From: Promethearchaeota archaeon
GTDB lineage: Archaea; Asgardarchaeota; Lokiarchaeia; Sigyniarchaeales; SOKP01
Length of the DNA: 58,778 nt
Assembly: GCA_013375475.1 (NCBI GenBank)
Contig: JABXKD010000013.1
Coordinates: 1-58,778 of the forward strand
Direction: 5' to 3'
Position 1 is the first letter of the stretch, and each line of letters opens with the position of its first letter. Positions 1,396 to 49,495 of this stretch are shown piece after piece. Under the pieces are notes generated by a model. It made no database searches. It saw nothing but the letters and a program-made list of their open reading frames with translations, and was not told the DNA's origin. A program made the translations under genes and the position numbers.

Positions 1396-1398
1396 TAT

Positions 1399-10348: not shown

Positions 10349-10523
10349 AATTAATTCTACTTATACGATAATTTTTAACTTTAACTACAATTAAGCATAT
10401 TTATTTTAATTGGTAGTTTATTTCGAAAATGTTGAATTACTGAAAAAATTATCGACCAACCTTAATAATTGATTCTAGAAGAATGTTCATAACATTTTAG
10501 TTCAATATTTCACATTTTAATTT

Positions 10524-11600: not shown

Positions 11601-11626
11601 TTACATTACACTATACCCAATTTGTT

Positions 11627-12358: not shown

Positions 12359-12362
12359 ATTC

Positions 12363-13286: not shown

Positions 13287-13471
13287 TTTTCACACTTCTT
13301 TTCTAGATTCTAATAAATCTCCTATCTTAATAGATGAATTATTTAGAACAAAATTTTATGGTATATCGGTGTTGAACCAATAATAGATATTTATTTATTC
13401 CAATAATAAATATTTATTTTAATCTAAGTTGTCTATTTCATTTTAGTCATTGAAAAACCTGATGTGAAAAT

Positions 13472-15190: not shown

Positions 15191-15324
15191 GTTTTTTAAC
15201 TAAATAGTTTGCTACAATGTAGAAAAACATAAAAAATAGAACAAATAAAATATAAAATTATTCACTTATTAACTAGTAATTAATAACAATTTTAATCTGA
15301 AAAATTATATAGAGAATCAATATT

Positions 15325-16248
15325 ATGCCAGTTGGAATATACCTCTACGAAATTGACGAATCATTTGGACCAAATGTATTAGCAGAATATTATTTGGATC
15401 AAAAGAATAACGTAAATAAGGAGATCCTAAAGGATTTTGAAGAAAAACATATCCAAAAAGAATTTTCTGATACAATCTTTTGGAATGAAGATTTACGGTA
15501 TTATTCGGCAAAAATGGATGCAAAATCTGTTGAGCGAGATAATTTATTTCTAGGTTTTGTTCTAAAACAGGACGAGGATTTAGTCTCTTTGAAAAGTATC
15601 CTGGAAAACATCGCAACCAAAGTTGTAAAAGATTTCTCACAAGATAAAAATGCTCTAGAAGCATTATTGAGGAAAGAATTCGATTCCATTTTCACTTTAA
15701 TGGAAAAACTAAAGGAACCAAGTATGGTTAAAGAAACTATCAATGATAAAACTAAAAAAATGCTTGATGATGGTAAATTAACCGAAGCTAGAGAATTAAT
15801 TGACTTAGGTGAGCAAATTCCTGAAAAGTTGTCAGAGGAAATTAAACTTGCTGAACAACAACTAATCGAAGGCTTTTATAAAAAAGCAAAAAAAAGCTTT
15901 CTAAAAGCCGCCGAATTAGCAGAAACCATTCAAGAAGGGGATATCGTTTCGTTTTTAACAAGTAAAGCCGAACAAGTGGGAAAGTTTCCAGAATTAATCA
16001 AAGAGCGGGAAACTAATATAAAAGAAATAGAAAATAGGATTGAAACGCTACAGAATAACAAACTTCACCTTTATCACGAATTAATAAAACCATTAGATAC
16101 ATTAATAAATATTGCGAACTCATTTGAGGAGCATGAAACAACAACTGCATTAACCGAATTCCTTAAAGATAGTAAACGAGCAGATGAATTAGCTAAAGAA
16201 TTGTTCAATTTAGATAAAAAATTTAAGGAAATTCTACACGAACTATAA
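15325..16248 (+). CDS. Hypothetical protein with putative longin/uDENN-like N-terminal domain and helical C-terminus
   Basis: GIYLYEIDESFGPNVLAEY start; residue pattern fits beta-beta-alpha-beta-beta-beta-alpha-alpha; rest is charged and helical. Confidence 0.55.
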   Translation: MPVGIYLYEIDESFGPNVLAEYYLDQKNNVNKEILKDFEEKHIQKEFSDTIFWNEDLRYYSAKMDAKSVERDNLFLGFVLKQDEDLVSLKSILENIATKVVKDFSQDKNALEALLRKEFDSIFTLMEKLKEPSMVKETINDKTKKMLDDGKLTEARELIDLGEQIPEKLSEEIKLAEQQLIEGFYKKAKKSFLKAAELAETIQEGDIVSFLTSKAEQVGKFPELIKERETNIKEIENRIETLQNNKLHLYHELIKPLDTLINIANSFEEHETTTALTEFLKDSKRADELAKELFNLDKKFKEILHEL

Positions 16249-16285
16249 ACGATTTTATTATTAAAATCGAAAAAAGTTAATTTTT

Positions 16286-34784: not shown

Positions 34785-34797
34785 AATTAAAGTATCC

Positions 34798-35592
34798 TTA
34801 GTTTCTCTCGTTAAAAGATTTTCTCAGCTTCGCTACTATTTCATTCACGCTTACATCTTGTTCAGTTAATCGTAGGAACACATCTTCCAGATTTGCTCCT
34901 AATCTATCTGCTTGCTGACGAAGTTCTTCCATGGTTCCAATTCCAACTAATTTACCCCTATTCATAATCGCTATACGGTCACATAAGTCTTCCGCTATTT
35001 CCATGATATGGGTTGAAAATAATACAGAACCACCATTTTCGACATGGATATCTAAAATCTCTTTAACCACTTTCACAGACTTTGCGTCGAGACCAGCTAA
35101 AGGCTCGTCCATAATAAGTAAATCAGGATCATGAAGGATTGCGGAAATTATTTGAATTTTTTGTTTATTTCCATGGGATAAGGTTGCTACTAATTGTTCG
35201 TAATATTCTAGAGCACCTAAACTCTCCAAGTATTCTTGTGCTCGTTTTGAGGTTTCATCTCCATCTAAGCTACGAATAGACGCTATAAAATTAAACAAAT
35301 CTTTGGGTGTAAGTGATTTAAAGATCAACGGCTCCTCCGAAACGTAACCTACACGACTTTTAATTTGAACTTCTTCTGTTTCGGGATTTAAACCCATTAT
35401 TTTAATATCCCCTTGATTCGGTTCTAGCAAACCTAGTAACAGCTTAATAGTAGTAGTTTTACCAGCTCCGTTAGGACCTAATAAACCAAAAACTTCCCCC
35501 TTTTTAACTTCGAAGGAAATTCCGTTTACCGCTTTAACATCCCCAAAAAATTTCATTAATTCACTAACAGATATCATAACACTATCATTCAT
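34798..35592 (-). CDS. ABC transporter ATP-binding protein (copy B)
   Basis: GPNGAGKTT, LSHGNKQK, LIMDEP, STH. Confidence 0.93.
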   Translation of the reverse strand: MNDSVMISVSELMKFFGDVKAVNGISFEVKKGEVFGLLGPNGAGKTTTIKLLLGLLEPNQGDIKIMGLNPETEEVQIKSRVGYVSEEPLIFKSLTPKDLFNFIASIRSLDGDETSKRAQEYLESLGALEYYEQLVATLSHGNKQKIQIISAILHDPDLLIMDEPLAGLDAKSVKVVKEILDIHVENGGSVLFSTHIMEIAEDLCDRIAIMNRGKLVGIGTMEELRQQADRLGANLEDVFLRLTEQDVSVNEIVAKLRKSFNERN

Positions 35593-35625
35593 TCTACATC
35601 ATCATATTAAAGTTTTTTAAAATTT

Positions 35626-38280
35626 TTATCGTTTATTAATTATAATATCTTTACTTTCATACTTCCAAAAAACTAATTTAGTTAAGCCAATACTCAAAAT
35701 TGAAGGAATAACGCCTAAAAACACTATTAAAAATACTCCAACGAGAATTATGTTTTCGAAGTATACATTTATAAAAGCAAGTCCTACTGTATCAATTAAA
35801 TAATGATAAATAATACTAGGTAGCAAGCTTTTTGATTTTATATACATATATCCCATTGAAAAACCAATTAGAATGGTATATATGACCTGAAGCGCCGTTA
35901 GGTAATGAGGTCCACCTGACAATAGAACCCCAATAATGTTAAATGCATGTGCCAATCCAAAAACTACACCGCTTATTAAAATCGCTATTACATTTTTATA
36001 TTTTCTTGAAAGAAGGGGTATAACTACTCCCCGAAATGCAACCTCTTCCCATAATCCCGGTCTGATCATAAAAATCCAAATAAACCATCCCATACTAGCA
36101 ACCCCTCCATAAATAGGATTTGGATTCCTAAACAAGAAATCGGGAGGAAGATATGTTCCTCCTAAAATGGTAGCGCCAATATACAAAGTACAACAAAGAA
36201 TAGCAGTAGAGCCGAATCCAACAATTAAGTTTCGTATTAGAGGTTTTGCTCTGGTTAAACCGATAGATTTTGTGTAGTTTGAAAAAGTTTTATCTTTTAC
36301 TGGTAACCTCATCCCTATAGGAATTACTAAGAATAACAAAAGCACTAAAAATCCTTCATAATAAAGGAATTCGAAAATTAAAATACCTATATAATCTAAT
36401 TCCAAAATGAGAGGAAGAAAAATAATCTCGATAAAAGTTGCAATCCATGGAAATAGATTGAATAAGAGTAGTATCACTATAGCCCCTAAAATAGGTTTAC
36501 TTCGTAGTAATCCCCTTGTTTCAAATCGCGGCAATTTATCCGCTTTAGGAAACATAACCGAAAAAATGTAAAGAACAACGGTCAGTCCAATTAATCCTAA
36601 GATAAACATTATGATTGCAGTGGGTATTATTCCTAATGTAACGAAAAACGTAATTCCAAGGATAAAAATGAAAATACAAACACAAATGTCAACCCCAACT
36701 ATAGAAATCCATTTCAATACTTTATATCTTGGGTTAATATCTTCAAGGACGTACTTATATTTCATTCTGCCAAATAGTCTTACATTCATTTCAAAAACAA
36801 ATAAAAGAAGTGTCCACGAAATAGGTAGCGTGCTTAAGATTAAGATCAAAACATATACCGATTGAGTTAGTATTGTTAGAACTATAGCTATTAAACTTAA
36901 TGAGATCCCTTGAATTAATACCATTATGATTAATTTTCCTTTAGCTTGATCCCGCGGCACAAGAGGTAACGAAGCTAGTGTTGATGAGCCTGATTCTTCG
37001 ATTCTTAACATTCCTGCTACAAGCAGAGGAGGTATAAATTGACTGGCGAATAGTATAACTGTCCATAATATAAAGATGCTAACCATGGAACTTATTTCTT
37101 GAATAAATACTTCCTGCATAGCTAAAATCATAATAATAGGGTAAACGAGAGGCATGAGAATAAAAATCAACGATTGATAATCACGAGTTGAGGAGATTAA
37201 GTCTTTATGCATATATGATTCGACGGGAGAAGTAGTTTTAATTTCAATTACAACAGGTTCCAAAGTTTGCTTAGATTTTCTTTTTGATTCCTTTTTAGCT
37301 TTAGACGAGTCAATTTCAAAAGTAGCTACGCTCGACAAAGAACGAATGGCAATTTTATAAGTGAGAAATGTAATTCCTGCTAAGATTACCATTCCAGCTA
37401 TACTTGACCCCAATAACTCTAATGGAACTGGACCACTCACTATGGTCAAACTTATAAAATATCCCGGAGCAAAAGGTAATGGAATAAAACTAAGCATGAT
37501 ATTTAAGAAACTCGAGGGTGGATTTGTTTCAAACTCCAAAGCAAGATCTCCTATGGCTCTAAATCCCGATTGGAGTACAAAACTTGAACCAAATGCTATA
37601 AGGAAAAAACCTACTAGTGAAACTATTCTCAAGATATTAGCTTTTCCTGAACTTTTATTTGTTTCTGAAAAAACTCGGCTGAATCTTTCTCCAGCTATAA
37701 TCAAAAGGCTTACTGCAAAGACAGTTATTAGAAAGGAGGATATAAGACTTGCCAAAAATGTAAGAATATTCTGAGTTATGATCAATAATATAATCGGAAA
37801 CGAGAATGTCATTACTATTATTGGAATACTTAGATTACGAAACAAGGTCGCAAATCCCAATTTCTTTAATTCTTTTCGCGTTACTGGTAATGTTTGTAAC
37901 CATCTGAAAGAAGTGCCGGACATCAGACTACTTGTTGTAAATAATCCAAACATAAATATATAAAAAATAGATACAAGTTGATTAATCCAGAGAAAAAAGC
38001 TATAAAGGTAAATTTCTCCCTCAAACGGGTAAGATGCAGAAATTTCATCTGTTATTGTGAAATATAGAAGGATTGACATAAGTGGCATTAGCATCATCAC
38101 TAAACTGGAAATAATCTTTAACGATTTTGCTTGGTTCTTTATATATTTACTGTTTTTCTCGAATTTTTCAAGCAATTTAGCTTGATGTGCTCCAACTGAA
38201 GCAAATTGAGAATCCATTATCATCTCAAAATTCGTGTATTTAGAAAGTGAAAATGCGCTTAACTCTTTTTTTTCTCTCAA
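35626..38280 (-). CDS. ABC exporter permease fused to CPBP intramembrane protease (copy A)
   Basis: LQTLPV; MHKDLISSTRD...LASLPL...AK; C-terminal WEEVAFRG, FGLAH, HYLID. Confidence 0.8.
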   Translation of the reverse strand: MREKKELSAFSLSKYTNFEMIMDSQFASVGAHQAKLLEKFEKNSKYIKNQAKSLKIISSLVMMLMPLMSILLYFTITDEISASYPFEGEIYLYSFFLWINQLVSIFYIFMFGLFTTSSLMSGTSFRWLQTLPVTRKELKKLGFATLFRNLSIPIIVMTFSFPIILLIITQNILTFLASLISSFLITVFAVSLLIIAGERFSRVFSETNKSSGKANILRIVSLVGFFLIAFGSSFVLQSGFRAIGDLALEFETNPPSSFLNIMLSFIPLPFAPGYFISLTIVSGPVPLELLGSSIAGMVILAGITFLTYKIAIRSLSSVATFEIDSSKAKKESKRKSKQTLEPVVIEIKTTSPVESYMHKDLISSTRDYQSLIFILMPLVYPIIMILAMQEVFIQEISSMVSIFILWTVILFASQFIPPLLVAGMLRIEESGSSTLASLPLVPRDQAKGKLIIMVLIQGISLSLIAIVLTILTQSVYVLILILSTLPISWTLLLFVFEMNVRLFGRMKYKYVLEDINPRYKVLKWISIVGVDICVCIFIFILGITFFVTLGIIPTAIIMFILGLIGLTVVLYIFSVMFPKADKLPRFETRGLLRSKPILGAIVILLLFNLFPWIATFIEIIFLPLILELDYIGILIFEFLYYEGFLVLLLFLVIPIGMRLPVKDKTFSNYTKSIGLTRAKPLIRNLIVGFGSTAILCCTLYIGATILGGTYLPPDFLFRNPNPIYGGVASMGWFIWIFMIRPGLWEEVAFRGVVIPLLSRKYKNVIAILISGVVFGLAHAFNIIGVLLSGGPHYLTALQVIYTILIGFSMGYMYIKSKSLLPSIIYHYLIDTVGLAFINVYFENIILVGVFLIVFLGVIPSILSIGLTKLVFWKYESKDIIINKR

Positions 38281-38281
38281 C

Positions 38282-39088
38282 TTAAGTCATCTCCTCGATT
38301 TTCTTTTTATACGAATTTCTTAACTTCTTCACTATATCTTCTACCGTAGAATCTTGTTCAGTTAATCGTAGGAACACATCTTCAAGGCTCGCACCTAGCT
38401 TATCCGCTTGTAGCCTGAGTTCATCTATAGTTCCAATTCCTACTAATTTACCCCTGTTTATTATTGCGATACGATCGCATAAATCCTCTGCAACTTCCAT
38501 GATGTGAGTTGAAAAAAGGACGGCTCCTCCCTTTTCAATATGCATATCTAAGATCTCTTTTACAACTCTTACTGATTTAGCGTCAAGCCCCGTTATCGGT
38601 TCGTCTAATATCAAAAGATCAGGTTCATGAAGAATTGATGCAACAATTTGTAGTTTTTGTTTGTTACCATGAGAAAGTGAAGCAATCATTTGACCGTAGT
38701 ACTCCGCTGCACCTAAACTTTCTAAATACTCTTTTACTCGCTCTGTAGCTTCCTTTGGATCTAATTGTCGAATAGAAGCTATAAAATTAAATAAATCCTT
38801 TGGAGTTAAAGATTTAAATATAAGCGGTTCCTCTGAAACGTACCCTACATTCTTTTTCATTTGAACTTCTTCACGCTCTGGATTTAACCCCAAAATACTG
38901 ATCTCACCTTCTAAAGGTTCAAGCAATCCCAATAAAAGTTTTATCGTGGTTGTTTTCCCCGCTCCGTTTGGACCCAAAAGGCCAAAAACCTCACCATTAT
39001 GAACATCAAACGAGATGCCATTGACGGCTTTAACTTCCCCAAAAAATTTTTTCAGATTTCTAACAGAAATTATTTTATTATCTATCAA
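38282..39088 (-). CDS. ABC transporter ATP-binding protein (copy A)
   Basis: GPNGAGKTT, LSHGNKQK, LILDEP, STH; paralog of 34798..35592. Confidence 0.93.
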   Translation of the reverse strand: MIDNKIISVRNLKKFFGEVKAVNGISFDVHNGEVFGLLGPNGAGKTTTIKLLLGLLEPLEGEISILGLNPEREEVQMKKNVGYVSEEPLIFKSLTPKDLFNFIASIRQLDPKEATERVKEYLESLGAAEYYGQMIASLSHGNKQKLQIVASILHEPDLLILDEPITGLDAKSVRVVKEILDMHIEKGGAVLFSTHIMEVAEDLCDRIAIINRGKLVGIGTIDELRLQADKLGASLEDVFLRLTEQDSTVEDIVKKLRNSYKKKIEEMT

Positions 39089-40377: not shown

Positions 40378-41538
40378 TTGATTATGAAAAGTTTTGATCG
40401 CATATGGGGAGCTCTCAACTTTGAAGCGATTGATAGAATTCCAACCCATACAATTAATATCGATGGAAATGTCGCTGATCAAATCTTAGGTCGTCCTAAA
40501 CGAAATGCCTTTGACATATTTCATGAGCTGGAAAAGAAATATCCCGATGATTGGGTAGATAAAATTAACGATATCCTCCTCGAAATTGAAATTTCTACCT
40601 TTTCAAAAGCAGTAAGAGCAGGATACGATTTGGGATTTGATGGAGTGGGAGTACAATACATACCCTTTATCCTTGAAAGTCTAACCGAAATGACAGATAT
40701 ATTTGGAAAGAGACATAAAGTCAGGAATATCGAAGGCAATCCCTATCCTGATTACTATGGTGGATATATTAAAAATCGAGAAGATTGGGAGGCGTATCCT
40801 AAACCGGATATGAAGGAAGAATATAATAAAGCTAAAAAATTTTACAAAGGAGTTTTGAGAAAATGTCGAGATATAAACGAAGATATCTGTATTTTCGCTC
40901 AAAATGCTTTAACATCGGTGTTTCCCCCCGTTTGGCAGGGAATGGGCATGCAAAATTTTGCTCGAGCTCTTAAAAACGATCCAAAACTTATCGAAGAACG
41001 ATTTCGCTTTAGTACAGACTACACACTAACAGTATTTAAAGCCTATTCTGATTGTGGTGCTAAGATCTTTCTAGAAGGCGGAGATATAGCTCACTCAGGA
41101 GGACCAATGATTAATCCGAAATACTTTGATAAGTACCTGCTTCCACGTTACCAAGAGGTTTCAGAAACAATTCACGAGTGGGGTGGGAAATATATATTGC
41201 ATACTGATGGTGATATCACTACTCTCTTAGATTTCATCGTTGAGTCCGGATTTGACGGTCTTCAATGTCTTGAACCACCTTTGGTTGATCCATATTCAGT
41301 CAAAAAGAAAGTAGGCGACAAATTGTGCTTGTCGGGGAATATCGATACAAGACATATACTAGTGGATGCTACAAAAGAAGAAGTGGAACAGGCCGTTAAA
41401 ACTGCCGTAAACGCACTAGCTCCTGGAGGTGGTGGTATGATTTCCCCTGCTAATTTTCATCCCGGAATGTCAGTTGAGCATTTAAGGTGGATGATTAAAG
41501 CTGCGAATAAATTTGGGAATTATCCATTTCTAGAGTAA
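40378..41538 (+). CDS. Uroporphyrinogen decarboxylase / MtaA-like family protein
   Basis: DRIWGAL...DRIP, GDIAHSGGPMINP, LHTDGD, LSGNID. Confidence 0.82.
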   Translation: MIMKSFDRIWGALNFEAIDRIPTHTINIDGNVADQILGRPKRNAFDIFHELEKKYPDDWVDKINDILLEIEISTFSKAVRAGYDLGFDGVGVQYIPFILESLTEMTDIFGKRHKVRNIEGNPYPDYYGGYIKNREDWEAYPKPDMKEEYNKAKKFYKGVLRKCRDINEDICIFAQNALTSVFPPVWQGMGMQNFARALKNDPKLIEERFRFSTDYTLTVFKAYSDCGAKIFLEGGDIAHSGGPMINPKYFDKYLLPRYQEVSETIHEWGGKYILHTDGDITTLLDFIVESGFDGLQCLEPPLVDPYSVKKKVGDKLCLSGNIDTRHILVDATKEEVEQAVKTAVNALAPGGGGMISPANFHPGMSVEHLRWMIKAANKFGNYPFLE

Positions 41539-41568: not shown

Positions 41569-42531
41569 TTAAACTACCTTTTTCCCTCTAACAATCATAA
41601 AAATGGAGAATATAACAATAATCGTTCCGATTAAATGAAAAAAGGTAAACACCGTCCCAAGGATAATGAATGAGAAAAAAGCGGAGACAATTGGTGTAAG
41701 GGAAATAATAATGCTTGCTTTCCCGATTTGAATATATGTTAAGGTTTTATACCAGAGATATAGAGACGCTCCGTAGTCAATCGCCATGAGTAGAAAAAAC
41801 ATAAAATTATAAGGATCAATAACGATAGCGAAGTTTTCCAGTGGAAAGATTAGAAAATAAAATATGGTTAGCAGTATCCCTGAAAATAAATTCCTTAGGA
41901 ATACTACTTGAGAGGGAAATAATTCATTTCTTTCAAAGCTTATTTTTGTTAGCGTATGTACTAATGTAAAAAGTATAACACTAAAGAGAAGAATAAGAAC
42001 ACCCAGATTAAACTCACGTAGATTTAAGGAACCATCAGTAATCGCAATCACAAGTCCAAAAAACAATAGAAAACAAAACAGAATTTGAACTTTAGATATC
42101 TTCTCCTTTAAGAATAGAAATCCAAACATTAAAGCAAAGATGATCTCAGATTTCATAGTCAAGGAACTTATAATAGGTCCTGCAAGTTCGTAACCAATAT
42201 AAAGTAAAATTGGGACTGCGCTAAAAGTTAATCCTATAATTATAATAACTTTTATATTTGATTTTTTTTTCCAACCGTGAATTAGAGATGAATTCTTTTT
42301 ATTTGATATCGGATCATTTAATAAACCTCTGCTTAATTTACCCCTTTCTATTAAAAGTATAGGAAAAAAGAGTATAGCTTCAATCAAGGCTGTTATTGCT
42401 CCAAATAAGTAAGGATCGATTATATCGGGTCGTGCAATAGAAATTACTGGCTGTAATCCAATTGTAAAAATACAAATCGAAGCAAAAATGATTCCTTTTT
42501 TTAAATTATAATTTTCCACGCTAACTTCCAA
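41569..42531 (-). CDS. DMT/EamA family transporter; start may be GTG 42519
   Basis: About 10 TM; paralog of 39325..40266 (FLKEKIS, LYLWYKTL, PIVSAF). Confidence 0.88.
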   Translation of the reverse strand: MEVSVENYNLKKGIIFASICIFTIGLQPVISIARPDIIDPYLFGAITALIEAILFFPILLIERGKLSRGLLNDPISNKKNSSLIHGWKKKSNIKVIIIIGLTFSAVPILLYIGYELAGPIISSLTMKSEIIFALMFGFLFLKEKISKVQILFCFLLFFGLVIAITDGSLNLREFNLGVLILLFSVILFTLVHTLTKISFERNELFPSQVVFLRNLFSGILLTIFYFLIFPLENFAIVIDPYNFMFFLLMAIDYGASLYLWYKTLTYIQIGKASIIISLTPIVSAFFSFIILGTVFTFFHLIGTIIVIFSIFMIVRGKKVV

Positions 42532-44329
42532 ATTGAGTAAAATTTTTTAATTGATCTGAATTAAAAACGGGTCCATCTTTGCAAACAGTGATATTGTGAT
42601 CATTTCCTATACAACAAGAACCGCATAATCCTAACCCACATTTCATTTTTCTTTCGATACTAGCCTGAATTTCAATATTCTTTAAATTCGCTAGTTCAAG
42701 AACTTTTTTCATCATAACTTCGGGACCACATGTAACAATCAAATCGAAATTCTCTCTATTAATTAATTCTTCAACTGGATCAGTTACAACACATTTCTTT
42801 CCTATAGATCCATCTTCTGTAGTACACATTGTATCTGGAATCAAACCTATTAACCTTTCCGCGAAAATCAACGATTCTTCATCTTTAGCTCCAATTGCTA
42901 CTTGTACATTTGCCTTATTTTGTTTCAAAATATCTACTAAGGTTGTTAACGCTGCGATTCCCATTCCTCCTCCTACTAAAAGGATATTTTTAAAATCTTC
43001 ATAATTAAACGAATTTCCAAAAGGTCCCCGGATTCCGATTGAGTCTCCTTCACTCAATTCGAACAACTTGGATGTTCCCTCTCCTATTTTCTTAACGGTT
43101 ATTTCAATGAGGTCTTCATCTATGTTCGAGATGGACATTGGGAGAAAGTCAATATCCGGTAGCCATAATATGACAAACATTCCTGGTTTGTAAGCATCCG
43201 CAATCCTCGAATTTCTAATAACAAAACTTCTAATTTCCGAGGAATGTTCTGTTATAGATTCTAACTTCACAATATCGGTTTTATTTCTGGTTAAATCTAA
43301 AACAAGCTCCTTCATACTGTGCTCTAACGGTTCTGCTTCGATAAAGTTTTGTTCAACAGCTAAATCAAAAACTTCTTTACCTCTTTCTGTTCTTACAATT
43401 AGAGTGTTCCACCCCTCTTTACTACCAAATTTTCCAATTGATAAATCTGCGAACGATGCTGTGTAATCAGAACAAGAAAAACAGGCATTTCTAATTGCTT
43501 TATCGTATAAATAGTTAAGCGGAATATCCTTTACAGTAGAATTACTGGTTATGCTCATGCAAAAATTATCTTTATCAGTATTTATTTTATCTATATCGCT
43601 AGATTTAATCCCGAATTCGTTAAATGCGATATCTAATAATTGATTATAATAAGTACCAAAACAAAAGGTCCCTATAGCCAATGTTACTAAATCATACGCC
43701 TCGTAATCAAATGCGGGATGGTTCTGTAATTTCCTTAGAGCCTGAACCTGACAGGGAGTTCCTACAACGGCAATATCTACGTTTTCTTTATTGATGGCTT
43801 CTCCTAAAAGTGAAAGTAATGGACCTTGACTTGGTTTATATCCTGCTCCTTTGAAAATATCTTGTGAATTTTGGGCTATTATCGGAATAGGCTTAAAGTT
43901 TTCCTCTTTATCAGTAATAATAGAACAATCGATCAAACCATTTTCCATAGCCAACCATAATAGCCCTGACAATGGACCAGCATTCTCTGGCACACTTTCT
44001 CTTGCTTTATCTGTGAGTTTTATTGAAGCAATTTCTAGATAATGTCCCAAAATCTTATTGTGTTTTTTTCCAAAAACCCACTTATCTAATAAGGATAAAG
44101 GAATTGCTTCAGTTTCCGTTTTTGGACAAAGATTATAACAAAGGCCATAACCATCTTTACATGTATTCACATCTTTACAAGAACCATCTTCGATAGGGAT
44201 CTCTTTTTCTTTATCAAATTGAATGTTTGCACAGAATGCCCCACACGCTCCACAGTATACGCATTTCCCGGTTTGAATTATTTCTTCAGATAGTTCCTTC
44301 CAACCTTTCTGAATCTTTCCAATATACAT
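42521..44329 (-). CDS. Fusion: ferredoxin/FrhB-like (F420-reactive beta subunit) plus PyrK/NfnA-like FAD-NAD(P)-[2Fe-2S] domain
   Basis: N-terminal part: CVYCGACGAFC, CYNLCP, VVGTPCQ, IGTFC, ACFSCSD, ADLSIG. C-terminal part: PGMFV, PMSIS, RGPFGN, GGGMGIA, CGPEVMM, MKCGLGLCGSC, VCKDGPVF. Confidence 0.88.
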   Translation of the reverse strand: MYIGKIQKGWKELSEEIIQTGKCVYCGACGAFCANIQFDKEKEIPIEDGSCKDVNTCKDGYGLCYNLCPKTETEAIPLSLLDKWVFGKKHNKILGHYLEIASIKLTDKARESVPENAGPLSGLLWLAMENGLIDCSIITDKEENFKPIPIIAQNSQDIFKGAGYKPSQGPLLSLLGEAINKENVDIAVVGTPCQVQALRKLQNHPAFDYEAYDLVTLAIGTFCFGTYYNQLLDIAFNEFGIKSSDIDKINTDKDNFCMSITSNSTVKDIPLNYLYDKAIRNACFSCSDYTASFADLSIGKFGSKEGWNTLIVRTERGKEVFDLAVEQNFIEAEPLEHSMKELVLDLTRNKTDIVKLESITEHSSEIRSFVIRNSRIADAYKPGMFVILWLPDIDFLPMSISNIDEDLIEITVKKIGEGTSKLFELSEGDSIGIRGPFGNSFNYEDFKNILLVGGGMGIAALTTLVDILKQNKANVQVAIGAKDEESLIFAERLIGLIPDTMCTTEDGSIGKKCVVTDPVEELINRENFDLIVTCGPEVMMKKVLELANLKNIEIQASIERKMKCGLGLCGSCCIGNDHNITVCKDGPVFNSDQLKNFTQFGS

Positions 44330-44330: not shown

Positions 44331-44930
44331 CTAATTTTTCCCCTCCTTTAATTGCTTAAGAAGCTTTTCTGCTTCTTGTTTTCCTAATTCGAACGCTTCT
44401 AAATTTTGATTAATGGTAGCGATAGGGACGAATTTTTTAATAGTTTCCATAGCTGATTGCTCAGAAAAAATTCTTGATAGGATAGTAAAACTTCCAAATA
44501 AAATTGAATTTCCAAACACTATGTTACCAAAACTCTCTACTGCTATTTTTTGGATAGGAATTCCAATCTTTTTTTCAATATGTCTTGCAGCTCGAAAATT
44601 TTGTATAGTAGAAGTGTCCCATATCAGATATCCGGTATTTTCGTCCTCTTTAAGATGTTCTGGTTTTACATTTTTAGCAGCTTCTTCTGAAAGTACAACT
44701 AGAAAATCGTAAGGGCGCATAGCTTTTGGATAATCTATCGATTTTGTATTTTTATCTAAATCTATAACCACTTCTGCCCAACATTTTCCTCCACGAGCAG
44801 ACGAACCGTAAGCCTCAGTTTGTGTAGCAGCTAAGTCTCCATATAATGAACTTGCGTTAATTATCATTTTTGAGAGAGTTATTACTCCCTGACCCCCATA
44901 TCCTACAATCCTAACTTCGTACCTACTCAT
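44331..44930 (-). CDS. korC: 2-oxoacid:ferredoxin oxidoreductase gamma subunit
   Basis: EVRIVGYGGQGVI, YGSSARGG, NSILFG, NLEAFELG. Confidence 0.85.
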   Translation of the reverse strand: MSRYEVRIVGYGGQGVITLSKMIINASSLYGDLAATQTEAYGSSARGGKCWAEVVIDLDKNTKSIDYPKAMRPYDFLVVLSEEAAKNVKPEHLKEDENTGYLIWDTSTIQNFRAARHIEKKIGIPIQKIAVESFGNIVFGNSILFGSFTILSRIFSEQSAMETIKKFVPIATINQNLEAFELGKQEAEKLLKQLKEGKN

Positions 44931-44932: not shown

Positions 44933-45850
44933 TTAATCATCTCCCATAGCAACTTTCTGAATCTTGGAATACACTTCTGAGTATTCGGGTCTGCTATTAT
45001 CATAGCGAAATTCACCAATAATATATCTATTAAAGAGCTCATCTTCACTCATAAATTTTACTTGGTTTTTCCTTACAGTGTTTCTTTTTATCCATTCTAT
45101 CATTTTTCCCCCTGTATCCATTTTATTTCCTGGAAGACCTAAGTTTTCAGCACCGAGATTATCAAGATTTTTACTCCCAAAATATGTTAAGCAGGGGGTA
45201 ATTACTTCAATCACAGAAGTTCCTTTATGTCTTAAAGCTTTTTTAAAGTATTTCATAAGCGTTCGCGGATGTGCTACCGTGGTTCTAGCAATATGTGTTG
45301 CACCTGCAGCTAGCGCTAGTTTCACAGCATCGCTTCTTTCTTCAAACACTTTATAAGGAGTAGTTGTGCTTTTTGCCCCATACAAAGTAGTTGGTGCACC
45401 TTGACCCCCTGTCATAGCGTATATACTATTATTAAAGATAAGGATAGTACAATCAACATTTCTACGACATATGTGAATAAAGTGATTTCCTCCAATTCCG
45501 AGACAGTCTCCATCACCGGTAAATACAATAGGTTTCAATTTAGGATTTGCCATTTTCATTCCCGTAGCAACTGCTGGCGCACGGCCGTGAAGCGTAGAAA
45601 ACTTTTGTGCCTTATGATGAGCTAAGGTTACTATTTGGGTATAGCATCCAATACCTATAATTAAAGGATACAATTTTGGATCAAGTTTCTCATCCTCAAA
45701 TATTCGAGTAAAAAGATGACCAATTATTCCATACCCACAACCTGCACAAAATAGAGAATTATAACTACCAAAAAGATGTCCTCCAAAAGAATGCTGAACA
45801 TAGGGATGGTCTGGTTTTTCTGTTGGATATCTTGGGCCTAAATCTGACAT
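44933..45850 (-). CDS. korB: 2-oxoacid:ferredoxin oxidoreductase beta subunit (ThDP-binding)
   Basis: FCAGCG, GIGC, TLHGRA, GDGD...NNSIYAMTGGQ, TPC. Confidence 0.88.
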   Translation of the reverse strand: MSDLGPRYPTEKPDHPYVQHSFGGHLFGSYNSLFCAGCGYGIIGHLFTRIFEDEKLDPKLYPLIIGIGCYTQIVTLAHHKAQKFSTLHGRAPAVATGMKMANPKLKPIVFTGDGDCLGIGGNHFIHICRRNVDCTILIFNNSIYAMTGGQGAPTTLYGAKSTTTPYKVFEERSDAVKLALAAGATHIARTTVAHPRTLMKYFKKALRHKGTSVIEVITPCLTYFGSKNLDNLGAENLGLPGNKMDTGGKMIEWIKRNTVRKNQVKFMSEDELFNRYIIGEFRYDNSRPEYSEVYSKIQKVAMGDD

Positions 45851-47022
45851 TATTTTGATACCTCCTTTATAACATTTAATATATCATCTGGATGGTGAAT
45901 TTCACCTACTTTGGGGATTTTTATTATCGGAGTTTCACGTTTTTTGACTCTTTCTACCTGTTCTGCGATAATTCCCGTATAATTTAACTCAGGTATAATT
46001 ATTGCCTTAGTATTTTTTACTACGCTTCTTATTTTCTCATCAGGAAATGGCCAAATAGTTATCAACCTATATACTCCGACTTTTATTCCTTTCTCCCTAG
46101 CTTCATCGACTGCTCGATAACTAGCCCTCACAGGTAGCCCATACGCAATAATGACAATTTCCGCATCATCTAATCTATATTCTTCAGTTATTGAGATTTT
46201 TTCAATATTTGAATTTACTTTTTCAATCAATATTTCCATAAATGCTAAGGCATTAGATATTGGAAGACCAATTGTGTTATGAGGTAATTGAAGAGATGTA
46301 GCTGGATAATAATCTGTGCCTATTATTGGAGGTTTAGGGATAATGAACTCTCCAGTCTCATCATTTTTATAAGAAAATATTTTAGAATAATCTTGGGGTA
46401 ATTCGCGTTTAATTACTCTTTTAATTATTTCTTCCTTTGGTGGAATGTAAACTGGTTCATGAAGATGTCCTAAATAGGCATCAGAGAGAATAAATACAGG
46501 ACAGCGATAAGTTTCAGCAAAATTAAATGCTGTTATTGTTAGATCAAAGAGCTCTTGGCAGTTCATTGGGGCTAACGCAATAACTTGAAATTCTCCCTGG
46601 CCAGCAAAACGAATTAATCCTAAATCGTTGTGATGGGGTGCAGTTACGGGTCCATGGCTGCCAGGACCAACGCGTTGAACATCACAAAAAACAAACGGAA
46701 TTTCAAGATTTGCTGCCATTGAGATTGTTTCTACCATTAAAGAAAGACCCGGTCCAGAAGTTGCTGTCATTGCTTTTGCTCCGGTTAAAGATGCCCCCAT
46801 TACGGCATTAATTGATGCTAATTCGTCTTCCATTTGAATACAACACCCTCCCACCTCTGGTAATCGCTTAGCAAGATGTTCTATAACTTCAGTAGAAGGA
46901 GTTATCGGATAACCTCCAAAAAAATTTAAACCTGCTGCTAATGCTCCTTCTGCCATCGCGACATTTCCCATCATAACGTGTTTACCTTCTGGCAAATATC
47001 TTTTAGTATTTTTTACTTTCAA
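45850..47022 (-). CDS. korA: 2-oxoacid:ferredoxin oxidoreductase alpha subunit
   Basis: GNVAMAEGA, YPITPSTE, QMEDELAS, TATSGPG. Confidence 0.88.
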   Translation of the reverse strand: MKVKNTKRYLPEGKHVMMGNVAMAEGALAAGLNFFGGYPITPSTEVIEHLAKRLPEVGGCCIQMEDELASINAVMGASLTGAKAMTATSGPGLSLMVETISMAANLEIPFVFCDVQRVGPGSHGPVTAPHHNDLGLIRFAGQGEFQVIALAPMNCQELFDLTITAFNFAETYRCPVFILSDAYLGHLHEPVYIPPKEEIIKRVIKRELPQDYSKIFSYKNDETGEFIIPKPPIIGTDYYPATSLQLPHNTIGLPISNALAFMEILIEKVNSNIEKISITEEYRLDDAEIVIIAYGLPVRASYRAVDEAREKGIKVGVYRLITIWPFPDEKIRSVVKNTKAIIIPELNYTGIIAEQVERVKKRETPIIKIPKVGEIHHPDDILNVIKEVSK

Positions 47023-47039: not shown

Positions 47040-47321
47040 TCATGTTTTAGCTTTTTTAGTCTTAGGTTCTTCTTCATCTAGAACATAAATACACCAATCC
47101 GGGCACCCATATTCACATCTTCTACATCCTGTGCAATACTTAGACTTTCCTTCTTTAACTCGAGGAGTATAAGCAATTCGCATATTTAATTCATTATTGA
47201 GCTCTAAAATACCAGTGGGACATAAAGAAATGCACATTTGACATCCTCCGCATCGATCTTTATTTAGAAATAGTGAAAATTTCTTCTTTTCATTCTCCAA
47301 TAATTTTGGAATTATAATCAA
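47040..47321 (-). CDS. korD: 2x[4Fe-4S] ferredoxin, OFOR delta subunit
   Basis: CGGCQMCISLCP and CTGCRRCEYGCP. Confidence 0.85.
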   Translation of the reverse strand: MIIIPKLLENEKKKFSLFLNKDRCGGCQMCISLCPTGILELNNELNMRIAYTPRVKEGKSKYCTGCRRCEYGCPDWCIYVLDEEEPKTKKAKT

Positions 47322-47460: not shown

Positions 47461-48201
47461 ATGAAAAAATTAATCTTCTTAGGTTGCTTGTCAAATTCCA
47501 AATATAAGAATACATGTGCTAACGCTATTAAAATTATCCAATCGATCGATCCGACTTACACAGTTTTAGACGATGTCCCATGCTGTGGGGCTTTATCGTA
47601 TCATATTGGAAATGATATCGAGTTAAGAGAACATGTGGAATTTGTAAATAATTGGTTTAAAACTAACGATATTTCCGAGATCGTGACTACTTGCGCGGGA
47701 TGCTATAATTATTTAACAAAATATTACACCCAATTTCTAGGAAACGAATTTAAAATTAATGTTAAACATTTCCTTCAATTTTTAGCTGAACCAGAAAATC
47801 TCTCAAAGTTAGATTTAAAACATTCTGGAAAGAAGTTAAAAGTAAGCTATCACGACGCTTGTCACTTAAGAAATGCTGAAGTACCTATAATTGAAGAACC
47901 TAGAAAAATCCTCAATTCAATCGATAATATCGAACTCAACGAAATGGAAAATAATAGAACAAATAGCATTTGTTGCGGCGCTGGAGGGGGGGTTTATTCA
48001 ATATTTAAAGAAAATAGTGATTACAATTCAAAATTGATTTTTGATCAATTAAATCGCGGAAAAATTTTAATAACTGCATGTCCTTTTTGTTTTACCGCTT
48101 TGGCTCGTATTAGAGAAGAGCACCAAATAAAAAAACCTGTGGTTAAATTTGAAGATTTTATTATAAACATTATAGAAGGAGTTGATCCTCTAGATGGATG
48201 A
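47461..48201 (+). CDS. CCG-domain Fe-S protein (LutA/HdrB-like)
   Basis: FLGC, CCG...TTCAGC; YHDACHL, CCGAGGG, TACPFC. Confidence 0.85.
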   Translation: MKKLIFLGCLSNSKYKNTCANAIKIIQSIDPTYTVLDDVPCCGALSYHIGNDIELREHVEFVNNWFKTNDISEIVTTCAGCYNYLTKYYTQFLGNEFKINVKHFLQFLAEPENLSKLDLKHSGKKLKVSYHDACHLRNAEVPIIEEPRKILNSIDNIELNEMENNRTNSICCGAGGGVYSIFKENSDYNSKLIFDQLNRGKILITACPFCFTALARIREEHQIKKPVVKFEDFIINIIEGVDPLDG

Positions 48202-49495
48202 AAAAGGAGAGGAATTATATGAAAAAGTTAAGGAAAACATCGAAACTTCTCAAAAAGAAGGGACTTTAGAAAACCAATTTGGAACATTCTGGAAGATGGC
48301 TTGTACGATAAAAACTAGGCAACATGATATGAGATATTTATACGAAGATACGAGTCGAGAATTTGTTGATCAAAATCGGGATAATCTTACCGCAATGCGG
48401 GAAGAGTTTGTTAAACATATGGAATCCTACGTTGAAAAATGCATTAATATAATGCGGAAAAAGAACTTTATTGTTCATTACGCAAAAACAAATGAAGAAG
48501 CTCAAAAAATTTTCATGGAAGAATTAGGGGATAATAGAACTATTTACAAGTCGAAATCAGTTGAAGCTAAAGATATCGGCATTATTGATGTATTGAAAAA
48601 GAATAAAATAAAAATAAAAGAAACCGATTTAGGGGATGTCCTTGTTCAATTGTTCAATTATACTTTACCAAGTTTTCAAGTTGGCCCCGGAGCTCATTTT
48701 ACTGAAGAAGAAATTGCAAATAAAATTAAGGAGGTATATGGAGTAGAACTTGAACCTAAAGCTCAAGCGATCGTCGACTATTTTAGAAGTACTTTTAGAA
48801 ATGAGTTGCTCAACCAGGTGAAAGTCTCCTTAACATCTGCAAATGCTATTTCTGCGGAGGATGGAACAATTGTATTAGGAGAAAACGAAGGTAATATCAG
48901 TCTTATAACAAGAGCAACTGAAAAGCACATTGTCGTATGTGGTATTACTAAAATCGTCCCTAATATTTTGGATGCCGTTTTAATGACACAATTGGCATCT
49001 AGAATAAATAATGTTTCCTTTAATTACATAAGTCTCATTTCAGGACCGTCAAATACTTCTGATATACAAGGCACAAGCGTTCAAGGTATGTACGGAGCAA
49101 AGGAAGTAGTCGTTATCCTTGTTGATGACTGGAGAACTAAAGCTGCTAAAGAGAATCTCATTTATGCTGAATTTTTAAAGTGTCTTGGTTGCAAATCTTG
49201 TATCTTTCCCTGTACTGCCTCTCGAGCATTTGGTAATATCTACGCTTCCAAGTACGGCTTAGGAGCTACTGCGATAATAAGAGATTATATTCACAATGGA
49301 ATTGAAGCCGCTGTAAACGATGGTCTATTTCTTTGTACAGGATGTGAAAATTGCCTGCACTGGTGTCCTGTTTCAATTAACTGTGGCGAAATTTTAAAAT
49401 CTATGAAAAAGGAAGCAACAGAAAAAGGTTTAGCTCCGCCATCTCTAGAGAAGTATAAAGAGAAGATTTTTAAGGATAAAAATCCTTTTTTATAA
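48194..49495 (+). CDS. LUD-domain Fe-S protein (LutB/LldF-like)
   Basis: KSKS, ETDLG, ANAISAEDG, NEGN, ISGPSNTSDI, CLGCKSC, CTGCENCLHWCP; overlaps the upstream gene by 8 nt. Confidence 0.85.
   Translation: MDEKGEELYEKVKENIETSQKEGTLENQFGTFWKMACTIKTRQHDMRYLYEDTSREFVDQNRDNLTAMREEFVKHMESYVEKCINIMRKKNFIVHYAKTNEEAQKIFMEELGDNRTIYKSKSVEAKDIGIIDVLKKNKIKIKETDLGDVLVQLFNYTLPSFQVGPGAHFTEEEIANKIKEVYGVELEPKAQAIVDYFRSTFRNELLNQVKVSLTSANAISAEDGTIVLGENEGNISLITRATEKHIVVCGITKIVPNILDAVLMTQLASRINNVSFNYISLISGPSNTSDIQGTSVQGMYGAKEVVVILVDDWRTKAAKENLIYAEFLKCLGCKSCIFPCTASRAFGNIYASKYGLGATAIIRDYIHNGIEAAVNDGLFLCTGCENCLHWCPVSINCGEILKSMKKEATEKGLAPPSLEKYKEKIFKDKNPFL

What the first reader, a model, noticed from the sequence alone, without database searches (positions are those of the whole stretch)
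42521..44329. FrhB-like/PyrK(NfnA)-like fusion directly after an OFOR operon
Seen: one uninterrupted 602-aa ORF joining a ferredoxin-FrhB region (~aa 1-350) to an FAD/NAD(P)/[2Fe-2S] region, starting 1 bp after the korC stop. The FrhB GG motif reads AGPLSGLL. No pyrD, NfnB/GltD or hydrogenase gene is adjacent. Known: FrhB folds react with F420; PyrK/NfnA folds react with NAD(P). Inference: a two-flavin module that passes low-potential electrons from 2-oxoacid oxidation to F420 and/or NAD(P), as a transhydrogenase or possibly a bifurcating enzyme feeding the H4MPT C1 pathway (ftr is in the window). Alternative: an electron acceptor for a distant PyrD.
Basis: partly seen in the sequence, partly recalled or inferred. 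Interest (0 to 1): 0.78.

Follow-up and report, generated by a model that had tools for sequence, protein, structure and literature searches.

The report
Fused electron-outlet subunit of Asgard oxoacid oxidoreductase
A Loki-type Asgard archaeon ends a 2-oxoacid:ferredoxin oxidoreductase operon with an untested 602-residue protein, mislabelled in databases as a pyrimidine-synthesis subunit, that probably carries the enzyme's electrons along an iron-sulfur wire to NAD(P) rather than to free ferredoxin.

Summary
One 602-aa ORF on the minus strand (42521-44329) joins a 2x[4Fe-4S] ferredoxin domain, an FrhB-type domain and a PyrK-type FAD/NAD/[2Fe-2S] domain. It starts 1 nt after korC.

The fusion is the fifth gene of korDABC. 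korC lies directly upstream in 42 of 42 assessable related loci. Eight of 8 fusion-less family genomes tested also lack the KorA ortholog.

It is not a PyrD partner: the genome has its own adjacent pyrD-pyrK pair, and a separate NfnAB pair.

The N-half is closest to the F420-reductase adaptor subunits of Ca. Ethanoperedens CODH and Fwd (8RIU_B, Z 38.4). However, the two loops that hold the ADP part of FAD in every canonical FrhB (QDGG, G[ST]xY) are changed and no longer specially conserved. The cluster cysteines are kept.

Best reading (about 0.5): an OFOR-attached outlet that wires 2-oxoacid electrons to the PyrK FAD and NAD(P)+. F420 reduction remains possible (about 0.25), since the organism has CofD, CofE and Mtd. 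Bifurcation is unsupported.

I found no paper on it. This scan has already reported the same fusion on at least ten other genomes.

Verdict: a new variant of a known kind, of moderate to high interest.

The parts
47040..47321 (-). korD: OFOR delta subunit, 2x[4Fe-4S] ferredoxin-like, 93 aa
   Evidence: Pfam Fer4 families and NCBIfam OorD (68.8 bits). Eight Cys are invariant in 15 orthologs.
45850..47022 (-). korA: OFOR alpha subunit, 390 aa
   Evidence: POR_N and PFOR_II. NF006412 scores 404 bits, just under its cut-off of 411.
44933..45850 (-). korB: OFOR beta subunit (TPP-binding), 305 aa
   Evidence: TPP_enzyme_C. PorB_KorB subfamily scores 188.5 bits, below its cut-off.
44331..44930 (-). 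korC: OFOR gamma subunit, 199 aa; its stop lies 1 nt before the fusion's start
   Evidence: POR domain. Directly upstream of the fusion in 42 of 42 assessable loci.
42521..44329 (-). Whole fusion ORF, 602 aa plus stop
   Evidence: AF2 model on a 126-row alignment: pLDDT 90.0, pTM 0.87.
44045..44329 (-). Fusion aa 1-95: N-terminal ferredoxin domain, 2x[4Fe-4S] (C23, C26, C29, C33; C51, C57, C64, C68)
   Evidence: All 8 Cys are invariant in 16 family members. The region aligns with the ferredoxin domain of 8riu_B. That domain anchors the zeta subunit to CODH (PMC11493965, passages).
43280..44044 (-). Fusion aa 96-350: FrhB-type domain with [4Fe-4S] ligands C193, C223, C283, C286
   Evidence: Pfam FrhB_N and FrhB_C. 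8riu_B: Z 38.4, rmsd 3.1 A over 351 residues. 8rja_E: Z 35.1. The four Cys are invariant.
43976..43987 (-). aa 115-118, NAGP: the equivalent of the FrhB QDGG loop that wraps the FAD pyrophosphate
   Evidence: Alignments. Role of QDGG from PMC3930138 (passages).
43832..43846 (-). aa 162-166, GYKPS: the equivalent of the FrhB G73-T77 (GTKYT) FAD loop
   Evidence: PMC3930138.
42524..43279 (-). Fusion aa 351-602: PyrK-type FAD/NAD(P) domain (GGGMG, CGPE) plus an all-Cys [2Fe-2S] (C564, C569, C572, C583)
   Evidence: NF000796 over its cut-off. 5ksw_B PyrK: Z 32.4, rmsd 1.7 A over 243 residues. 5jca_S NfnA: Z 31.9. Ligand comparison. Invariant residues.
41569..42531 (-). EamA-family transporter gene. 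As listed from its first TTG, it overlaps the fusion's end by 11 nt. A frequent but not constant downstream neighbour.
47461..49495 (+). Divergent CCG-domain (LutA/TfrB-like) and LutB genes. Context only.
   Evidence: The same divergent pair occurs in 12 of the 35 loci that have at least 3 kb of upstream DNA.

Best explanation
The ORF encodes a fifth, electron-outlet component of a four-subunit Kor-type 2-oxoacid:ferredoxin oxidoreductase (OFOR).

Proposed path. All of it is inferred from homology; none was measured.
1. Electrons leave the TPP site through the KorB and KorD [4Fe-4S] clusters.
2. They enter the fusion's N-terminal 2x[4Fe-4S] domain. The same type of domain docks the F420-reductase subunits onto CODH and Fwd in Ca. 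Ethanoperedens.
3. They pass the FrhB-domain [4Fe-4S].
4. They reach the PyrK-type [2Fe-2S] and its FAD.
5. They leave as a hydride on NAD(P)+.

The net reaction would be 2-oxoacid + CoA + NAD(P)+ -> acyl-CoA + CO2 + NAD(P)H, without free ferredoxin.

The FrhB-like half serves mainly as docking piece and iron-sulfur wire. Its flavin pocket is altered: possibly FMN, a differently bound flavin, or no flavin. F420 is at most a secondary acceptor.
For: Operon membership:
- korC is directly upstream on the same strand in 42 of 42 loci that have upstream DNA. Three of the 45 fusion loci start inside the gene and were not assessable.
- The full korD-A-B-C set is present in 34 of the 35 loci with at least 3 kb upstream.
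- The median distance between the aligned korC end and the fusion start is 10 nt. In the window it is 1 nt.

Co-inheritance:
- 17 of 26 genomes of the organism's GTDB family carry the fusion, and 0 of 125 sampled genomes of other families of the phylum do.
- Eight of 8 fusion-less family genomes tested lack a KorA ortholog.
- Two fusion-bearing controls have a KorA ortholog (73-83% identity) beside the fusion.

Structural relatives:
- N-half: best PDB sequence hit 8riu_B (E 3e-55) and 8rja_E (3e-43); Z 38.4 and 35.1. These subunits wire ferredoxin-type enzymes to a hydride carrier via an N-terminal ferredoxin domain (PMC11493965, passages).
- C-half: PyrK equivalog over its cut-off; Z 32.4 to PyrK. 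Four Cys, GGGxG and CGP are invariant. 19 of its 29 closest stand-alone relatives sit directly after pyrD, so they are genuine NAD-linked PyrKs.

Flavin loops:
- All 10 stand-alone FrhB paralogs of this genome and all 22 closest stand-alone representatives keep [QT][DNSQ]GG and G[ST]x[YL]. The fusion clade does not.
- In canonical FrhBs these loops rank among the most conserved 7% and 12% of positions. In the fusion family they rank at the 61st and 57th percentile of variability. The cluster-ligand loop GTPCQ stays conserved, at the 20th percentile.

Same theme elsewhere:
- Another OFOR cluster in the same genome carries NuoE/NuoF-like NADH modules.
- A canonical FrhB sits directly before iorAB in another Asgard genome.
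Against: - No biochemical data exist.
- No model coordinates were available, so I could not check that the [2Fe-2S] lies within electron-transfer distance of the FrhB cluster or flavin pocket.
- The isoalloxazine/cluster loop (GTPCQ) is conserved, so a flavin may still be bound and F420 may still react.
- Divergent family members keep GG (P0121, P0123, L055) and a near-canonical GTPFT (P0123).
- The organism makes or uses F420: CofD, CofE and Mtd are present.
- Sending electrons of about -500 mV to NAD+ wastes energy, which seems odd for a syntroph that needs reduced ferredoxin for H2 or formate (physiology from PMC7015854, passages).
- NAD versus NADP cannot be assigned from sequence.
- The entropy comparison uses 19 closely related sequences.
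Confidence: 0.5

Rival explanations
1. F420 is a true acceptor. The FrhB-type domain still holds a flavin and reduces F420, as ACDS zeta and FwdI do, while the PyrK half adds an NAD(P) port. The complex would be a 2-oxoacid:F420/NAD(P)+ oxidoreductase. It could also equilibrate F420H2 and NAD(P)H, acting as a transhydrogenase.
For: - The closest solved relatives are proven F420 reductases (PMC11493965).
- CofD (312 bits, cut-off 257), two CofE genes and Mtd (351 bits) are in the genome.
- In the family, CofD is over its cut-off in 38 of 41 genomes and CofH in 31 of 41.
- The loop around the isoalloxazine and Cys ligand is conserved.
- Some family members keep GG and GTPFT.
- Fsr shows that Fd-FrhB-X fusions work with F420 (PMC10229431, passages).
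Against: - QD of QDGG is lost in all 19 family sequences examined. The second G is lost in the main clade, and one member (L041) has no G at all.
- The invariant G of G[ST]xY is replaced in several members.
- Both loops show no special constraint in the family.
- All 32 canonical comparators keep them.
Confidence: 0.25
2. A free-standing ferredoxin:NAD(P)+ (or F420) oxidoreductase that is merely co-expressed with Kor. It would re-oxidise soluble ferredoxin reduced by this OFOR and is not a bound subunit.
For: - KorD already gives the OFOR a complete three-cluster chain to a surface site.
- Synteny alone does not prove a complex.
- Recalled, not checked here: soluble FpoF acts as a ferredoxin:F420 oxidoreductase in Methanosarcina.
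Against: - Spacing to korC is 1-10 nt, and synteny holds in 42 of 42 loci.
- Kor and the fusion are lost together.
- The closest solved relatives are bound subunits anchored by the same N-terminal domain.
Confidence: 0.13
3. A flavin-based electron-confurcating or bifurcating enzyme, an Nfn analogue. The FrhB-site flavin would couple F420(H2) to both the low-potential Fe-S/OFOR branch and the [2Fe-2S]-FAD-NAD branch.
For: - Formally the module set parallels NfnAB: a PyrK-like subunit plus a flavin with a [4Fe-4S] chain.
- In vivo F420 has an NADPH-like potential, about -380 mV (PMC10229431, passage).
- This genome pairs PyrK/FlxA-like and FrhB genes in an HdrA cluster.
Against: - The candidate bifurcating flavin site is the eroded one.
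- The [2Fe-2S] has Cys where both NfnA structures have Asp.
- In known FrhB modules the flavin is a chain terminus with one cluster neighbour (PMC10229431 and PMC3930138, passages).
- The genome has a canonical NfnAB pair elsewhere.
Confidence: 0.08
4. A PyrK variant that serves dihydroorotate dehydrogenase, as its database name says.
For: The NCBIfam PyrK equivalog scores over its cut-off. Every source name says 'dihydroorotate dehydrogenase electron transfer subunit'.
Against: - pyrD at C211:96546-97388 is followed directly by its own 288-aa pyrK.
- The fusion is never next to pyrD in the 42 assessable loci.
- Nine of 26 family genomes lack the fusion, although pyrimidine synthesis is essential.
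Confidence: 0.02

Closest known systems
F420-reductase adaptor subunits of Ca. Ethanoperedens thermophilum: ACDS zeta (PDB 8RIU chain B) and FwdI (8RJA chain E); Lemaire et al. 2024, PMC11493965 (passages read)
   Same: An N-terminal 2x[4Fe-4S] ferredoxin domain plus an FrhB-type domain with one [4Fe-4S]. Encoded with, and in the solved cases bound to, an enzyme that normally uses ferredoxin. Z 38.4 and 35.1, 27-30% identity.
   Different: Here the partner is an OFOR. A whole PyrK module is fused to the C-terminus, where zeta has a dimerisation tail. The FAD-binding loops QDGG and G[ST]xY are not kept, so F420 reduction is not assured.
PyrK, electron-transfer subunit of class 1B dihydroorotate dehydrogenase (PDB 1EP1/5KSW chain B)
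   Same: An FNR-like FAD/NAD fold with a C-terminal all-Cys [2Fe-2S]. Z 32.4, rmsd 1.7 A over 243 residues. The NCBIfam equivalog scores over its cut-off. The closest stand-alone relatives are pyrD-linked.
   Different: It is fused behind an FrhB module, is never next to pyrD, and the genome has a separate pyrDK pair.
NfnA of NADH-dependent ferredoxin:NADP oxidoreductase (PDB 4YLF chain A, 5JCA chain S)
   Same: The same fold, and the role of an NAD-side FAD plus [2Fe-2S] feeding a partner's cofactors.
   Different: There is no NfnB/GltD partner. Cys stands at the position where NfnA has Asp. The genome's real NfnAB is on contig C13.
Fsr, F420-dependent sulfite reductase (PDB 7NP8/7NPA); PMC10229431 (passages read)
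   Same: A single chain built as ferredoxin domain - FrhB domain - C-terminal catalytic or redox module. Z 30.9.
   Different: The C-terminal module there is a siroheme sulfite reductase, and FAD is bound canonically. Here the C-terminal module is PyrK and the flavin loops are altered.
NAD(P)-linked OFORs with an extra flavoprotein subunit: phenylglyoxylate:NAD+ oxidoreductase PadEFGHI and 2-oxoglutarate:NADP+ oxidoreductase of Azoarcus/Aromatoleum. Recalled; only the NCBIfam model names for PadE/G/I were seen.
   Same: An OFOR core plus an added flavoprotein that lets a 2-oxoacid reduce NAD(P)+ directly.
   Different: The added subunits belong to other families. Neither an FrhB-type adaptor nor a PyrK-type module is known there (recalled, not tested).

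Membership tests
PyrK (DHOD 1B electron-transfer subunit) | FNR-like FAD/NAD(P) fold with a C-terminal four-Cys [2Fe-2S] domain | tested here: met
   NF000796 scores 255.6 bits (cut-off 224). Z 32.4 to 5ksw_B. C564, C569, C572 and C583 are invariant.
PyrK (DHOD 1B electron-transfer subunit) | Works with, and is usually encoded next to, PyrD | tested here: not met
   korC, not pyrD, is upstream in 42 of 42 loci. The genome's pyrD has its own adjacent pyrK on C211.
FrhB-type F420 reductase/oxidase module (FrhB, FpoF, Fsr N-half, ACDS zeta, FwdI) | FrhB fold with one [4Fe-4S] bound by the PCQ, FC and CxxC cysteines | tested here: met
   Pfam FrhB_N and FrhB_C. Z 38.4. C193, C223, C283 and C286 are invariant.
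FrhB-type F420 reductase/oxidase module (FrhB, FpoF, Fsr N-half, ACDS zeta, FwdI) | FAD-binding loops QDGG (pyrophosphate) and G73-T77 / G[ST]xY (PMC3930138) | tested here: not met
   The loops read NAGP and GYKPS here. All 32 canonical comparators keep the motifs and the fusion clade does not. The loops are not specially conserved in the family.
FrhB-type F420 reductase/oxidase module (FrhB, FpoF, Fsr N-half, ACDS zeta, FwdI) | Hydride exchange with F420 | not testable with these tools
   This needs an enzyme assay. F420 biosynthesis and use genes are present in the genome and family.
NfnA (Nfn small subunit) | Pairs with NfnB/GltD; [2Fe-2S] has an Asp in place of the first Cys | tested here: not met
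   No GltD-like neighbour. Cys stands where 4ylf_A and 5jca_S have Asp. That this Asp is a ligand is recalled.
Four-subunit 2-oxoacid:ferredoxin oxidoreductase (Kor/Oor type) - the upstream genes | Delta (2x[4Fe-4S]), alpha (POR_N, PFOR_II), beta (TPP_enzyme_C) and gamma (POR) subunits in one operon | tested here: met
   Substrate specificity is not assignable: all equivalog scores are below their cut-offs.
Bound fifth subunit of the OFOR complex | Physical association with KorABCD | tested here: inconclusive
   Only genetic evidence is available. No structural or biochemical test of binding could be made.

The most novel reading that the evidence does not exclude
The Kor-fusion complex is a three-port redox hub in which the FrhB-site flavin is retained and bifurcating or confurcating. 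2-oxoacid-derived low-potential electrons and NADH together would reduce F420 (or the reverse). That would be an F420-type Nfn built onto an OFOR, giving these Asgard archaea a direct route from amino-acid oxidation to the F420H2 needed by their H4MPT Wood-Ljungdahl branch (Mtd is present).
Probability: 0.08. Interest if true: 0.85.

Novelty: new variant of a known kind. Interest (0 to 1): 0.6.

Why it matters
Current models of Asgard (Loki-type) metabolism treat 2-oxoacid oxidation as the main energy-yielding step and assume that it reduces free ferredoxin, which then drives H2 or formate release to syntrophic partners (PMC7015854, passages). If one of the OFORs instead hands its electrons directly to NAD(P) or F420, the redox budget of these organisms changes, and with it the thermodynamics of the syntrophy used in eukaryogenesis scenarios.

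The case also extends the recently discovered principle that FrhB-type adaptor subunits re-wire ferredoxin-dependent enzymes (PMC11493965) to a new enzyme class and a new output module.

It also exposes a systematic database error. Every source name listed for this family calls it a dihydroorotate dehydrogenase subunit.

Tried and rejected
- Complex prediction with KorA, KorB, KorD and fusion aa 1-95 as partner returned 'no answer' (score 0.00). It says nothing for or against binding.
- The first AF2 model, on 16 close homologs, was poor (pLDDT 65.5). It was replaced by a 126-row alignment (pLDDT 90.0, pTM 0.87). No coordinates are delivered, so cofactor distances could not be measured.
- Expression: two metatranscriptome runs of one study (X19, X21) gave only short, low-depth contigs on korA and korC and 41-90-nt pieces on the fusion. 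This is not enough to claim transcription or a single transcript.
- NAD versus NADP: comparison with NfnA, PyrK and SHI gamma showed no usable signature.
- The tree of the C-half shows the fusion clade as one group (support 90/54). The NfnA and AsrB-like outgroups sit on branches of about 3 substitutions per site, so their placement is unreliable. No donor lineage is claimed.
- Correlating the fusion with F420 genes failed to discriminate. CofD and CofH are family-wide whether or not the fusion is present.
- Of the 8 stand-alone N-half relatives in Asgard genomes that I examined, none has kor-type genes beside it. One sits directly before an iorAB-type OFOR (L131).
- Literature searches: 'FrhB'+'PyrK' gave 0 papers. 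'FrhB'+'Asgard' gave 16 papers, 13 listed, none on this protein by title or abstract. 'Lokiarchaeota'+'2-oxoacid'+'F420'+'ferredoxin' gave 2, both unrelated. 'F420-dependent'+'2-oxoacid'+'FrhB' gave 3, all unrelated. The phenylglyoxylate search gave no primary paper. Supplements were not opened, and the supplementary gene tables of the Asgard genome papers might list this gene.
Full report
**Observation.** The window holds an uninterrupted ATG-started ORF of 602 aa at 42521-44329, on the minus strand.
- Pfam finds FrhB_FdhB_N (aa 117-175), FrhB_FdhB_C (aa 186-336, E 4.7e-37), a weak NAD_binding_1 (aa 451-543) and DHODB_Fe-S_bind (aa 559-594).
- NCBIfam matches FpoF over aa 16-348. It matches the PyrK equivalog NF000796 over aa 351-600 at 255.6 bits, above its cut-off of 224.
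- Upstream on the same strand lie korD (47040-47321), korA (45850-47022), korB (44933-45850) and korC (44331-44930). One nucleotide separates the korC stop from the fusion's ATG.
- No pyrD, GltD/NfnB or hydrogenase gene is adjacent.
- ftr is in the window but about 29 kb away (12363-13286).

**Organism and distribution.**
- Where sources name homologs, they are from Promethearchaeota/Lokiarchaeota MAGs. Every name given is 'dihydroorotate dehydrogenase electron transfer subunit'.
- One search returned 299 clusters at E<=1e-3. The 120 listed are 68-94% identical.
- Among 1.84 billion 50%-identity representatives, only four proteins match both halves: P0121 (65%), P0123 (43%) and the fragments P0122 and P0124. 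All other hits match one half only.
- In 151 sampled genomes of the phylum, the full-length fusion occurs in 17 of 26 genomes of the organism's own GTDB family (some are split at contig ends). It occurs in 0 of 125 genomes of other families.
- Two more divergent full-length members (L054 at 50%, L055 at 39%) exist among species representatives. I did not determine their family.

**Genomic linkage.**
- Of the 45 fusion loci from species-representative genomes, three begin inside the gene and cannot be assessed.
- In all 42 others, korC lies directly upstream on the same strand. The median distance between the aligned ends is 10 nt.
- Of the 35 loci with at least 3 kb upstream, 34 show the complete korD-A-B-C set.
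- The exception is L030. There korC and the fusion follow an unrelated 1036-aa ORF with a LAGLIDADG domain at a contig start.
- Eight of the nine fusion-less family genomes were searched with KorA. None has an ortholog: five have no hit at E<=1e-30, and three have best hits of only 28-36% identity.
- Two fusion-bearing controls have KorA at 73-83% identity just upstream of the fusion.

The five genes are therefore inherited and lost as a unit.

**Not a PyrD or Nfn partner.**
- The genome has pyrD at C211:96546-97388, followed directly by its own 288-aa pyrK.
- It also has a canonical NfnA-NfnB pair on C13.
- The C-half is nonetheless PyrK-type in sequence. 19 of the 29 closest stand-alone relatives sit right after pyrD.
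- The fusion C-halves form one clade among these relatives, whereas the genome's NfnA and AsrB-like paralogs lie on very long branches.
- The first [2Fe-2S] ligand position is Cys, as in PyrK and SHI gamma, where both NfnA structures have Asp.

**Structure.**
- An AF2 model on a 126-row alignment reached pLDDT 90.0 and pTM 0.87.
- VIA-align gives 8riu_B Z 38.4 (rmsd 3.1 A, 351 residues) and 8rja_E Z 35.1 for the N-half.
- For the C-half it gives PyrK 5ksw_B Z 32.4 (rmsd 1.7 A, 243 residues) and NfnA 5jca_S Z 31.9. Fsr 7np8_A scores Z 30.9.
- By sequence too, 8riu_B (E 3e-55) and 8rja_E (3e-43) are the best solved relatives.
[quoted passage not shown] Ethanoperedens. Each has a ferredoxin domain with two [4Fe-4S] clusters that anchors the subunit, plus an FrhB-type domain with one [4Fe-4S] and FAD. 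They couple enzymes that normally use ferredoxin to F420 (PMC11493965, passages read).
- All 8 Cys of the fusion's N-terminal domain, the 4 Cys of the FrhB cluster and the 4 Cys of the [2Fe-2S] are invariant in 16 family members.

**The flavin site of the FrhB half.**
- In FrhB, the 24-QDGG loop wraps the FAD pyrophosphate. Loop 71-77 (G73-T77) and A72-N81 hold the adenine side. Loop 131-138, with the cluster ligand Cys134, surrounds the isoalloxazine (PMC3930138, passages).
- In the window's protein these read NAGP, GYKPS and GTPCQ.
- All 10 stand-alone FrhB paralogs of this genome and all 22 closest stand-alone representatives keep [QT][DNSQ]GG and G[ST]x[YL]. The fusion clade alone does not: NAGP, EAGV, NADP, TGGS, GGGA, GAGS; and GYKPS, NNNLS, EIKPC, GTPFT.
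- In the 32 canonical sequences the two loops are among the most conserved 7% and 12% of domain positions. In the 19 fusion sequences they sit at the 61st and 57th percentile. GTPCQ remains conserved, at the 20th percentile.
- The parts that hold the ADP moiety of FAD have therefore lost their special constraint. The cluster and isoalloxazine loop has not.
- This fits a domain kept mainly as an iron-sulfur wire and docking piece, or one that binds a flavin differently (for example FMN). It weakens, but does not exclude, F420 reactivity.

**F420 in the organism.**
- CofD (312 bits, cut-off 257), two CofE genes and the F420-dependent Mtd (351 bits) are present. Mer-like hits are below the cut-off.
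- CofG was not found. CofH is only an 87-aa C-terminal remnant in this assembly.
- CofH is over its cut-off in 31 of 41 family genomes, including all five sampled genomes of the same genus. CofD is over its cut-off in 38 of 41.
The distribution also does not discriminate, because fusion-less genomes have these genes as well.

**Mechanism.**
- Shown: the domain set, the cofactor-ligand conservation, the operon linkage and the co-loss.
- Inferred: electrons from the TPP site pass the KorB and KorD clusters, then the fusion's two N-terminal clusters, then the FrhB cluster, then the [2Fe-2S] and the PyrK FAD, and end on NAD(P)+. I put this at about 0.5.
- F420 as a real (co-)acceptor: about 0.25.
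- A co-expressed but unbound ferredoxin:NAD(P) oxidoreductase: about 0.13.
- Bifurcation or confurcation: about 0.08.
- A PyrD partner: about 0.02.
- I could not measure inter-cofactor distances, because no coordinates are delivered.

**Context that supports the theme.**
- On contig C144 of the same genome, another OFOR operon carries NuoE- and NuoF-like genes, and its beta subunit is fused to 2Fe-2S/4Fe-4S domains.
- In another Asgard genome, a canonical Fer4-FrhB gene sits 13 nt before iorA-iorB.
- Relatives have an HdrA-MvhD-FeS-FeS-PyrK/FlxA-like-FrhB cluster.

Attaching hydride-carrier modules to ferredoxin-type enzymes thus seems common in this lineage.

**Literature and earlier scan reports.**
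- Four targeted full-text searches found no description of this fusion.
- The MK-D1 paper treats 2-oxoacid oxidation as ferredoxin-coupled (PMC7015854, passages).
- The archaeal fusion survey mentions only Fsr among FrhB fusions in the passages I read (PMC11237513).
- After reaching the above reading, I found that this scan had already reported the same operon on at least ten other genomes, with the same closest relatives. Several of those reports also note the eroded flavin site. These are not independent evidence.

**Verdict.** This is a real, conserved, clade-restricted and uncharacterised fifth gene of a Kor-type OFOR operon. It is a new variant of known kinds (FrhB-type adaptor subunits; NAD(P)-linked OFORs), and its database name is wrong. 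Interest 0.6.

Noticed in passing
G000 contig C144, about 10671-16454 (L132:6672-12455, minus strand): A second OFOR operon in the same genome has the gene order gamma, delta, alpha, NuoE-like, NuoF-like (615 aa). It ends in a beta subunit fused to an N-terminal 2Fe-2S/4Fe-4S domain. This suggests an NADH-linked, possibly confurcating, OFOR.
   Followed up: partly
G000 contig C144, L132:446-6219: An MvhD-like gene (141 aa) and a 478-aa Fer4-FrhB with a canonical QDGG lie between two OFOR clusters. The second cluster has a gamma-delta fusion, an alpha and a beta.
   Followed up: no
L131 (G025:C13) 6379-10538: In an Asgard genome of another family, a canonical Fer4-FrhB (355 aa; QYGG and GSKYT kept) sits 13 nt before iorA (648 aa) and iorB, followed by a flavodoxin gene. 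This is a second kind of OFOR with an FrhB-type partner.
   Followed up: partly
L121 (G008:C10) 378-7136; in G000, paralogous clusters on C245 and at the start of C284: The cluster reads HdrA-like, MvhD, FeS protein (343 aa), Fer4_22 protein (347 aa), PyrK/FlxA-like (279 aa), Fer4-FrhB (370 aa). It is a Flx/Hdr-type cluster with an F420-reductase-type subunit, so PyrK-like and FrhB genes also occur as separate neighbours in this family.
   Followed up: partly
G000 contig C31:1277-1540 (L087): Only an 87-aa C-terminal remnant of CofH is found here, next to GTP cyclohydrolase I, and no CofG was found. All five sampled genomes of the same genus have full-length CofH. This is either a deletion or an assembly artefact.
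   Followed up: partly
L030:13-3123: In one MAG contig, korC and the fusion are preceded by a 1036-aa ORF with a LAGLIDADG domain instead of korDAB. This is the only exception among the 35 loci with enough upstream DNA.
   Followed up: partly
window 32148-39088 (minus strand): A tandem duplicate of a two-gene unit: an ABC ATPase (264 and 268 aa) plus a roughly 880-aa 12-TM permease fused to an Rce1/CPBP protease domain.
   Followed up: no
window 10524-11600 (+) and 40378-41538 (+): Two MtaA/URO-D-like methyltransferase genes. The second is conserved near the kor-fusion operon in several relatives.
   Followed up: no
window 47461-49495 (+): A CCG-domain (LutA/TfrB-like) gene and lutB are transcribed divergently from korD. 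The same arrangement occurs in 12 of the 35 loci with enough upstream DNA. A lactate-to-pyruvate-to-acyl-CoA route is conceivable but untested.
   Followed up: no
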